A DNA stretch of 64,000 nt from contig JAGMCI010000021.1 of assembly GCA_023129325.1 (NCBI GenBank), positions 3,712-67,711 on the forward strand, given 5' to 3'. The notes below the pieces were generated by a model. The model was not told the origin of the DNA. It was given only the letters and a program-made list of their open reading frames with translations, and did no database searches. Below are positions 4,555 through 4,599 of this stretch, in pieces. How positions within the stretch are numbered: position 1 is the first letter of the stretch; every line of letters starts with the position of its first letter. This DNA is from a candidate division WOR-3 bacterium. Its GTDB lineage: Bacteria; Hydrothermota; UBA3073; JACQXS01; JAGMCI01. The translations under genes were made by a program, and so were the position numbers.

Positions 4555-4599
4555 GTAGCCGAACCCCTGCCCGACATATGGCAGGCGGGCTTTAGGGTT
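4555..4599. repeat. Nested palindromes: a GAACCC...GGGTT hairpin element interrupted by a CTGCCCGAC-ATATGG-CAGGCGGGC element
   Basis: GTAGCCGAACCC + [CTGCCCGACATATGGCAGGCGGGC, 4567-4590] + TTTAGGGTT. The uninterrupted reverse-complement copy is at 55033-55054. Confidence 0.8.

What the first reader, a model, noticed from the sequence alone, without database searches (positions are those of the whole stretch)
4555..4599. Second nesting case: a CTGCCCGAC...CAGGCGGGC element inserted into a GAACCC/GGGTTC hairpin element
At 55033-55054 the element reads GAACCC-TAAA-GGGTTCGGCTAC. At 4555-4599 its reverse complement, GTAGCCGAACCC...TTTAGGGTT, is interrupted between stem and loop by the 24-nt CTGCCCGACATATGGCAGGCGGGC. 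That insert also occurs inside apgM (63562-63588, 2 mismatches) and, rearranged, inside ORF 52835 (53816-53870). Again the insertion point is at a hairpin loop.
Basis: seen in the sequence. Interest (0 to 1): 0.6.

Follow-up and report, generated by a model that had tools for sequence, protein, structure and literature searches.

The report
Tiny repeat nested inside REP hairpin
A 24-base GC-rich mini-hairpin found in many bacterial phyla has been inserted, without a target duplication, at the stem-loop border of a REP hairpin repeat, and the same spot was hit several times in this genome, so it is a real but modest new example of very small mobile DNA nesting in other repeats.

Summary
Window 4555-4601 is a GTAG-tagged REP hairpin, GTAGCCGAACCC-TTTA-GGGTTTG. 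It has about 23 intact copies and lies beside RAYT-like genes. It is split by the 24-nt element CCTGCCCGAC-N4-GGCAGGCGGG ("A"). A and its 30-nt sister B have about 75 copies.

Removing exactly 24 or 30 nt restores a sequence that recurs elsewhere for 20 of 74 copies, against 17 of 3000 random excisions. The element is therefore a discrete insert with no target-site duplication.

A splits this REP at the same nucleotide at three loci: intergenic here, in fmt, and in a GGDEF-EAL gene. These loci carry different A subtypes and different REP subtypes. A fourth REP copy carries a different 21-nt hairpin at the same point. About 0.025 hits are expected by chance.

In hairpin hosts the insert lies in the loop or at its border. 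However, 54 of 74 copies sit in unique, non-hairpin sequence, mostly in frame inside genes.

A is multi-copy in Scalindua, Desulfobacteraceae, Pirellulales and others, yet absent from most relatives.

The mobilising enzyme is unknown, and no empty allele was found. The closest known cases are cyanobacterial small dispersed repeats and insertion sequences (IS) that target REPs. I rate it a new variant of a known kind, of moderate interest.

The parts
4555..4566 (+). Outer REP (family R1), 5' part: GTAG tag, CC, and 5' stem arm GAACCC.
   Evidence: There are 23 intact copies of GTAGCCGAACCCTTYAGGGTTYG at <=2 mismatches.
4566..4590 (+). Inner 24-nt element A. It is CCTGCCCGACATATGGCAGGCGGG at 4566-4589, or equivalently 4567-4590; the boundary is ambiguous by 1 nt. 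It is an imperfect hairpin.
4591..4601 (+). Outer REP, loop TTTA and 3' stem arm GGGTTTG. This is the rare T variant shared with the empty paralogue C4:6424-6446.
4612..4635 (+). Second GTAG REP of another family (GTAGCGCGGGGCTTTATGCCCCGC), in the same orientation. Together with R1 it forms a BIME-like doublet.
   Evidence: family R3, 11 copies
55032..55054 (-).
63563..63587 (+). Solo A copy in frame in apgM. apgM is on the minus strand and the insert adds ARLPSVGQ.
63181..63204 (-). Second A copy in apgM. It lies inside a 30-nt double-hairpin host (GTGCCGGAGGCACATCC^GCCTTTGGCAG).
53817..53870 (-). 30-nt element B (53830-53859) nested in the loop of a 24-nt A copy. The 54 nt are in frame in ORF 52781-53944.
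4485..4513 (-). Promoter-like site (TTGACA-17-TATTAT) facing the DUF2520 gene. The composite lies upstream of it.
4674..4702 (+). Promoter-like site (TTGACA-17-TATATT) facing ORF 4781-5119. The composite lies between the two divergent promoters.

Best explanation
The outer unit is a GTAG-type REP, a short hairpin repeat of the kind associated with RAYT/Y1 transposases. The inner unit is a 24-nt non-coding micro-element (A; the sister element B is 30 nt) that behaves as very small mobile DNA. It has fixed ends (CCTGCC...GGCGGG), leaves no target-site duplication, and has a length that is a multiple of three. It is found mostly in frame inside genes. At 4566-4590 a copy of A was inserted into a pre-existing REP at the border between the 5' stem arm and the loop. 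The outer stem is kept and a second stem is added, giving a two-tier hairpin. The same nucleotide of this REP family was hit repeatedly and independently, always with CCTG on the GTAG strand, so the REP stem-loop border is a preferred entry point. Shown: discrete insert, no duplication, recurrent site, fixed orientation, independent subtypes, cross-phylum spread. Inferred: the element is moved in trans by an enzyme that acts on single-stranded or hairpin DNA (HUH/Y1-like, or a nick-and-repair route), and an extruded REP hairpin exposes the loop border to it. The enzyme is not identified.
For: The host is intact in 23 copies and split in 5. Excising exactly 24 or 30 nt restores a recurring site for 20 of 74 A/B copies, against 17 of 3000 random excisions (P = 3e-24). 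Three A copies split R1 at the same nucleotide, against 0.025 expected (P = 2.5e-6). Their inner loops differ (ATAT, AGAT, GGAC-type), matching separate A subfamilies that are abundant elsewhere. Their hosts are different R1 subtypes, TTTA/GGGTTTG against TTCA/GGGTTCG. C22:9158 carries an unrelated 21-nt hairpin at the same point. Two copies of another REP family, and one REP in relative G009, carry CCTG-type inserts on the 5' side of the loop. All 7 such inserts are in the same orientation (P = 0.016). In about 10 hairpin host families the insertion point is in the loop or at its border. In fmt the peptide reads VAEP-[LPDGQQAG]-FRVR, whereas intact R1 gives VAEPFRVR in three other genes; seven of nine fmt orthologues in relatives carry no insertion in this loop, and none carries the REP or A peptide. 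The fold keeps the outer stem, at -9.3 against -3.3 kcal/mol. C4:6424-6446 is an empty paralogue of the same REP doublet. A is multi-copy in distant phyla and absent from 57 of 60 relatives.
Against: No empty allele of this locus was seen. A Logan contig is 100% identical, and a second assembly at 99.65% identity carries the same fmt composite. Movement is therefore inferred from paralogues, not observed. No enzyme is linked to A: Y1_Tnp genes occur equally in genomes with and without A, and none is flanked by A. A shows no orientation bias against GC skew (34:30), unlike IS608-type single-strand transposition. Most A copies are not in hairpins, so hairpin targeting cannot be the whole rule. 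Spread of a composite as a unit, followed by conversion of the inner part, is not excluded.
Confidence: 0.6

Rival explanations
1. The REP::A composite formed once. It was then copied as a unit by the REP/RAYT machinery, because a loop insert leaves the GTAG tag and stem intact. The three composites would then be descendants, not independent hits.
For: All three composites have the identical junction. The C4 and C11 copies have identical REP halves. RAYT-like genes are present, and R1 flanks one of them. R1 itself lands in genes, with 11 of 22 copies in long open frames.
Against: The inner copies differ at 1-3 of 24 positions in ways that recreate existing A subfamilies. The hosts likewise recreate existing R1 subtypes. 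A different 21-nt element sits at the same point in a fourth copy, and similar inserts sit at the equivalent place in two other REP families. Neither fact can be explained by inheritance.
Confidence: 0.2
2. There is no transposition. Extruded hairpins are cut on the 5' side of the loop by an SbcCD-type nuclease, and the break is patched by copying a short GC-rich hairpin from elsewhere as templated filler. On this reading A is a favoured filler, not a mobile element with its own enzyme.
For: The insertion point is at the 5' loop border. Several unrelated hairpin families nest in REP loops. There is no target duplication. No dedicated enzyme was found. It is established knowledge that SbcCD cleaves hairpins 5' of the loop.
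Against: The ends of the insert are exact to the base in 70+ copies and across phyla, which filler synthesis rarely achieves. Of the 74 copies, 54 lie in non-hairpin unique sequence. No microhomology is visible at the junctions.
Confidence: 0.12
3. The composite is a functional structured element kept by selection. It could be a small RNA or a regulatory hairpin driven by the TTGACA-15-TATAAT box at 4523-4549. On this reading it is a long-loop REP variant and not an insertion.
For: REP families with long structured loops are known (PMC3733652).
Against: There is no Rfam match. The spacer of 15 fails the promoter scan. The same composite sits in frame inside fmt and a GGDEF-EAL gene. The inner unit is dispersed on its own in all six reading frames.
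Confidence: 0.05

Closest known systems
Small dispersed repeats (SDR1-8) of Nostoc punctiforme and relatives (Elhai et al. 2008, Genome Res 18:1484). Cited from memory and from the reference list of PMC3116915; the paper itself is not held.
   Same: Both are dispersed repeats of 21-27 nt that can form hairpins. Both are found nested in one another and in other repeats, co-occur with heptamer tandem arrays, and have no known mobilising enzyme.
   Different: This element is in an uncultured WOR-3-like bacterium and in many non-cyanobacterial phyla. About 73% of copies lie in frame inside genes. The host here is a GTAG REP hit repeatedly at one nucleotide. Sequence relatedness to SDR1-8 could not be tested.
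GTAG-tagged REPs, REPINs and BIMEs with RAYT (TnpA_REP) transposases (PMC3733652, PMC2817692, PMC3116915)
   Same: The outer element has the GTAG tag, a 6-7 bp GC-rich stem, a 4-nt loop, compensatory stem variants, copies flanking a Y1_Tnp gene in inverted orientation, and intragenic copies.
   Different: The inner element has no GTAG or CGTC tag and no flanking RAYT. Read on the other strand it is a CCCG-tagged hairpin, which resembles a REP only in form.
Insertion sequences that target REPs: ISPpu9, ISPpu10, ISPa11, ISPsy8, ISRm19/22 (Tobes and Pareja 2006, PMC1525189) and IS1397
   Same: A REP hairpin serves as a hot spot, with a fixed insertion position and orientation.
   Different: Those are 1-2 kb elements that encode their own transposase. 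Here the insert is 24 nt with no coding capacity and no target duplication.
Rickettsia palindromic elements (RPE), as summarised in PMC3733652
   Same: Both are palindromic repeats inserted in frame in working genes.
   Different: RPEs are about 100-150 nt and restricted to one genus. A is 24 nt and occurs across phyla.

Membership tests
GTAG-type REP / RAYT system (outer element) | GTAG tetranucleotide next to the foot of the hairpin | tested here: met
   GTAGCCGAACCC...; conserved in 21 of 22 copies.
GTAG-type REP / RAYT system (outer element) | Short GC-rich stem-loop, many dispersed copies, compensatory stem variants | tested here: met
   23 intact copies plus 5 interrupted. Stem variants GAACCC, GAAGGC and GAGGGC each have complementary 3' arms.
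GTAG-type REP / RAYT system (outer element) | RAYT (Y1_Tnp) gene flanked by inverted REPs | tested here: met
   The Y1_Tnp ORF at C56:33519-33887 is flanked by GTAGCCGAGGGC.. and an inverted GTAGCCGAACCC... That gene carries a stop and a frame change.
GTAG-type REP / RAYT system (outer element) | Mostly extragenic location | tested here: not met
   11 of 22 intact copies lie in open frames of >=150 codons. Intragenic REPs are nevertheless known (PMC3733652).
GTAG/CGTC-tagged REP (inner element A) | GTAG or CGTC tag, and a cognate RAYT flanked by the repeat | tested here: not met
   The ends are CCTGCC/GGCGGG. None of the 4 Y1_Tnp genes here is flanked by A, and neither of the two inspected in another phylum is flanked by A on both sides in the RAYT/REP manner; at L071 an A copy and an A-like composite lie upstream of one of them.
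Small dispersed repeats (SDR) | Dispersed unit of 21-27 nt with exact ends, nested in other repeats and in its own family | tested here: met
   A in B, B in A, A in REP, and A in four other hairpin families and in heptamer arrays.
Small dispersed repeats (SDR) | Sequence relationship to SDR1-8, and cyanobacterial host | not testable with these tools
   The paper and its sequences are not held. The host is not a cyanobacterium.
IS200/IS605-type single-strand 'peel and paste' elements | No target-site duplication | tested here: met
   Exact 24/30-nt excision restores host sequences.
IS200/IS605-type single-strand 'peel and paste' elements | Strong orientation bias relative to replication direction | tested here: not met
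   34 against 30 relative to local GC skew. GC skew is only a proxy in a 57-contig assembly.
IS200/IS605-type single-strand 'peel and paste' elements | Conserved 4-5 nt target immediately 5' of the element | tested here: inconclusive
   There is only a weak preference (T at -2 in 70% of copies, A at +2 in 55%), and the REP site does not fit it.
Rickettsia palindromic elements | Palindromic repeat in frame in genes, about 100-150 nt long | tested here: not met
   The in-frame location is met, with 55 of 75 copies in long ORFs. The size is not: 24 or 30 nt.

The most novel reading that the evidence does not exclude
A, B and the CCTGTC...CGGGG hairpins may be the substrates of one undescribed, horizontally spreading insertion machinery. 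It would leave no target duplication, read DNA structure rather than sequence, and prefer the 5' stem-loop border of extruded REP hairpins. These micro-elements would then be parasites of another selfish repeat and could hitch-hike when a RAYT copies the REP.
Probability: 0.2. Interest if true: 0.75.

Novelty: new variant of a known kind. Interest (0 to 1): 0.5.

Why it matters
How repeats of only 21-30 nt move is an open question; no enzyme is known for the cyanobacterial SDRs. A recurrent, oriented, single-nucleotide hot spot inside a defined REP hairpin gives a concrete substrate pair: a REP oligonucleotide and the 24-nt element. Candidate enzymes could be tested on this pair in vitro. The cross-phylum, patchy distribution allows a gene-presence screen. 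The case also shows that REPs and micro-hairpins can add layered 8-residue blocks to essential enzymes such as fmt and apgM.

Tried and rejected
- **Orthologous empty site in relatives:** The closest genome has only about 71% DNA identity in the neighbouring gene, and the intergenic region is not alignable.
- **Exact-protein look-ups:** The two flanking genes gave nothing at first. Later look-ups found only a 100% identical Logan contig. The proteins of the locus have no variant cluster members.
- **Metagenome scan for filled or empty alleles of this locus:** 0 hits.
- **Metagenome scan for any insert at this REP site:** 3 hits that look like chance.
- **Simple stem test with small offsets:** It missed the loops and was replaced by the test.
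- **Two scripts timed out**.
- **Unbiased 9+9 split-junction scan:** It was swamped by heptamer arrays and was replaced by a family-wise scan.
- **Y1_Tnp co-occurrence:** Not discriminating.
- **A copies near Y1 genes in a Planctomycetota MAG:** At L103 the Y1 gene has its own different REPs and A is about 1 kb away. At L071 an A copy lies just inside an IS200-like tnpA cassette (see noticed in passing). No consistent A-Y1 linkage was shown.
- **Phage vector:** Only 1 A match and 0 REP matches in viral contigs.
- **Other searches:** Rfam and plasmid searches were negative.
- **Elhai 2008:** It could not be read.

Full report
**Observation.** The sequence at 4555-4601 is GTAGCCGAACCC-CTGCCCGACATATGGCAGGCGGGC-TTTAGGGTTTG. 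The reverse complement of 55032-55054 is GTAGCCGAACCCTTTAGGGTTCG, uninterrupted. The 24-nt insert recurs at 63564-63587 with two mismatches. Shuffled controls gave no matches for either pattern.

**Genome background.** The assembly has 2.02 Mb in 57 contigs at 36% G+C. Neighbouring genes include a type IX secretion sorting domain. The nearest named relatives are candidate division WOR-3. The most frequent 14-mers of the genome are short GC-rich hairpins and heptamer arrays.

**The outer element is a REP.**
- All copies start with GTAG and form a 6-7 bp stem with a 4-nt loop.
- Three stem variants keep complementarity: GAACCC/GGGTTC, GAAGGC/GCCTTC and GAGGGC/GCCCTC.
- I call the GAACCC type R1. 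It has 23 intact copies at <=2 mismatches.
- The genome has four Y1_Tnp (RAYT or IS200-like) ORFs.
- The Y1_Tnp ORF on C56 is flanked by GTAGCCGAGGGC... upstream and by an inverted R1 downstream, which is the classic RAYT arrangement. This copy has an internal stop and a frame change, and Cys stands where the catalytic Tyr is expected (my reading of the translation).
- R1 is nearly private to this genome: 22 copies here, one in the same-family genome G001, and none in 59 other relatives.
- Half of the intact R1 copies lie inside long open frames, read as VAEPFRVR, NPKGFGY or RTLKGSAT.

**The inner element.**
- A loose arm search finds 75 copies. Of these, 55 are of the 24-nt type, CCTGCCCGAC-N4-GGCAGGCGGG (A). 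Fifteen are of a 30-nt type, CCTGCCCGCC-N10-GGCAGGCGGG (B).
- The base before CTGCC is C in 72 of 74 copies, so the unit is CCTGCC...GGCGGG.
- It folds as an imperfect hairpin with two alternative registers.
- Its loop tetramers come as RGAY and as the inverse RTCY.
- Fifty-five of 75 copies lie in open frames of >=150 codons. They use all six reading frames and both orientations, with the two Cys-containing frames rare.
- There is no orientation bias relative to local GC skew, at 34 against 30.

**It is a discrete insert.** For each copy I removed the element and asked whether the joined flanks (12+12 nt, <=2 mismatches) recur elsewhere in the genome.
- This held for 20 of 74 copies, against 17 of 3000 random 23-nt excisions. 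Fisher P is 3e-24.
- The best fit always removes exactly 24 or 30 nt. No target duplication is left.
- The hosts are R1 and three other hairpin families: CCCGCACTTA^TGCATAAGTGCGGG, CCCGCCTTGACTC^GGCGAGGCAGG and GAGAGCCTC^TGCTCTC.
- Further hosts are a 30-nt double hairpin (GGCACATCC^GCCTTTGGC), heptamer arrays, and the A/B family itself (A in B at C30:13413; B in A at window 53817-53870).
- When the restored hosts are folded, the insertion point lies in the loop or at the stem-loop border in nearly every hairpin host.

**The REP hot spot.** A scan of eight GTAG REP consensus sequences, tried at every split point, gave the following.
- R1 is interrupted five times.
- Three interruptions are by A, at GAACC^C: C14:8266 (this locus), C4:34876 and C11:5971.
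- One is by an unrelated 21-nt hairpin, CCTGTCTCGATGAAAACGGGG, at the same nucleotide (C22:9158). It lies about 110 nt upstream of a RAYT-like ORF.
- One is by the 30-nt double hairpin, in mid-loop.
- With 75 elements and 672 nt of R1 target, 0.025 hits are expected, so P(>=3) = 2.5e-6.

**Independence of the three A-containing composites.**
- They carry different A loops: ATAT, AGAT and GGAC-type. AGAT and GGAC are separate subfamilies that are abundant elsewhere.
- They carry different R1 subtypes: TTTA/GGGTTTG here, and TTCA/GGGTTCG at the other two loci.
- They lie in unrelated contexts: intergenic here, fmt, and the linker of a REC-GGDEF-EAL protein.
- In fmt the peptide is VAEP-LPDGQQAG-FRVR, which is an R1 block split by an A block. 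Seven of nine orthologues in relatives carry no insertion in this loop; the other two have unrelated insertions of their own there; none has the REP or A peptide.

**Equivalent inserts in other REPs.**
- Two copies of another REP, GTAGGCACG^ATTTCAAATCGTGC, carry CYTGTC...CGGGG inserts on the 5' side.
- In relative G009 an A-type copy splits a third REP, GTAGTGGCCGA^GCTCGCCTCGGC, at the equivalent place.
- All seven CCTG-type inserts have CCTG on the GTAG strand, giving a two-sided P of 0.016.

**Limits of the hairpin rule.**
- Only 9 of 74 copies have a flanking inverted repeat scoring >=7, against about 4.5% in controls. Most of these nine are the nested cases.
- The 54 copies in unique sequence show no excess of such repeats.
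- They show only a weak flank preference, T at -2 and A at +2.
- Hairpin loops are therefore favoured when the element lands in another palindromic repeat, but they are not required.

**Local context.** The composite and a second REP (4612-4635) lie between two divergent promoter-like sites, at 4513-4485 on the minus strand and 4674-4702 on the plus strand. Nothing in Rfam matches the region. The insert keeps the outer stem and adds an inner stem. The predicted DNA folding energy goes from -3.3 to -9.3 kcal/mol. C4:6424-6446 is a paralogous doublet: the same rare GGGTTTG variant, a similar spacer, and then another GTAGCGC REP, but without the insert.

**Distribution.**
- A at <=1 mismatch has 45 copies here, 3 in G001, 8 in G004, 1 in G009, and none in 57 other relatives.
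- Whole-genome counts are 32 in a Scalinduaceae MAG, 35 in Scalindua rubra, 70 in a Desulfobacteraceae MAG, 26 in a Pirellulales MAG, 52 in an unclassified MAG, 10 in a Thermodesulfovibrionia MAG and 13 in a Planctomycetota MAG.
- The reversed control pattern gave zero everywhere.
- In those genomes A again sits inside larger palindromes, inside its own family, and in heptamer arrays.
- Only one viral contig holds A.

**Mechanism.** Shown: exact ends, no duplication, a recurrent oriented site, independent subtypes, and patchy cross-phylum spread. The rest is inference.
- A trans-acting enzyme that handles single-stranded or hairpin DNA is the most economical idea. The element's conserved imperfections resemble recognition features of REPs and IS200/IS605 ends (established knowledge; PMC3479197, PMC8266576 and PMC6006769 were listed but not read in detail).
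- Against a simple IS608-like model, there is no strand bias.
- There is also no gene linkage. Y1_Tnp genes are present in genomes rich in A and free of A alike. Of two Y1_Tnp genes inspected in a Planctomycetota MAG, one (L103) has its own different REPs with A about 1 kb away, and the other (L071) is an IS200-like tnpA cassette with A copies only on its upstream side.
- A break-repair route at cleaved hairpins remains possible.

**Polymorphism.**
- A Logan contig from SRR13892596 is 100% identical over 6.7 kb and includes the composite.
- An ENA scaffold at 99.65% identity to C11 carries the same fmt composite.
- No empty allele was seen, so mobility rests on paralogue and orthologue comparison.

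**Comparison and verdict.**
- The outer element passes the REP tests, apart from being often intragenic.
- The inner element fails the GTAG/CGTC and RAYT tests.
- It matches the descriptive definition of small dispersed repeats (cited from memory; the paper is not held).
- REPs as insertion hot spots are known for full-size IS elements (PMC1525189).
- What is new here is the combination of a 24-nt, cross-phylum, gene-tolerated micro-element, repeated hits on one nucleotide of a REP in one orientation, and a second family using the same point.
- Earlier agents of this scan had already described the general repeat syndrome of this genome. This finding adds the hot spot.
- I rate it a new variant of a known kind, with interest 0.5.

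Noticed in passing
window 53817-53870: A 30-nt B element is nested in the loop of a 24-nt A element. The 54 nt are in frame and add about 18 residues near the C-terminus of ORF 52781-53944.
   Followed up: yes
window 63181-63204 and 63563-63587: apgM carries two A copies 383 nt apart. One is solo and one lies inside a 30-nt double-hairpin host. Genome-wide, A/B copies cluster at <=500 nt (5 pairs against 1.35 expected, P = 0.01). This hints at local hopping or at permissive genes.
   Followed up: partly
genome C22:9158-9201: An R1 REP is split at the same nucleotide by a 21-nt CCCGAT-family hairpin (CCTGTCTCGATGAAAACGGGG). It lies about 110 nt upstream of a RAYT-like ORF.
   Followed up: partly
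genome C56:33486-34018 (locus L013): A RAYT-like gene is flanked by inverted GTAGCCGA REPs but is interrupted by a stop and a frame change. Cys stands where the catalytic Tyr is expected, so it is probably a dead copy.
   Followed up: partly
genome C9:67854 and C3:64201: A 30-nt double hairpin (GTGCCAGAGGCACATCCGCCTTTTGCGGAA type) is itself inserted in the loops of two different REP families. It also hosts A at its centre. The hairpin-ATC-A-hairpin composite recurs in other phyla (L054, L090, L091, L131, L139).
   Followed up: partly
A copies genome-wide: The central tetraloop occurs as RGAY and as its inverse RTCY while the asymmetric arms stay fixed. This suggests small loop inversions, and therefore hairpin formation at the DNA level.
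   Followed up: no
L071:5866-6970 (Planctomycetota MAG JACZYU010000107.1): An IS200-like tnpA cassette is bracketed by a perfect 27-nt inverted pair of GCAAAGN heptamer arrays. An A copy lies 7 nt inside the left array, and an A-like composite lies 250 nt upstream of tnpA.
   Followed up: partly
window 4523-4549: A TTGACA-15-TATAAT box lies directly upstream of the two REP hairpins. Another first-reader note proposes a small RNA here. The spacer is short, and there is no Rfam match.
   Followed up: partly
genome C4:33822-35633: One REC-GGDEF-EAL gene holds a degenerate R1, an R1::A composite and a further intact R1. It also has an LPDGKAG stretch in the receiver domain that looks like an old, decayed A copy.
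   Followed up: no
genome C9:136178-136216: The nesting also runs the other way: a GTCCCGAT...ATCGGGAC hairpin sits in the loop of an A copy. The same hairpin family also occurs with a GTAG tag.
   Followed up: no
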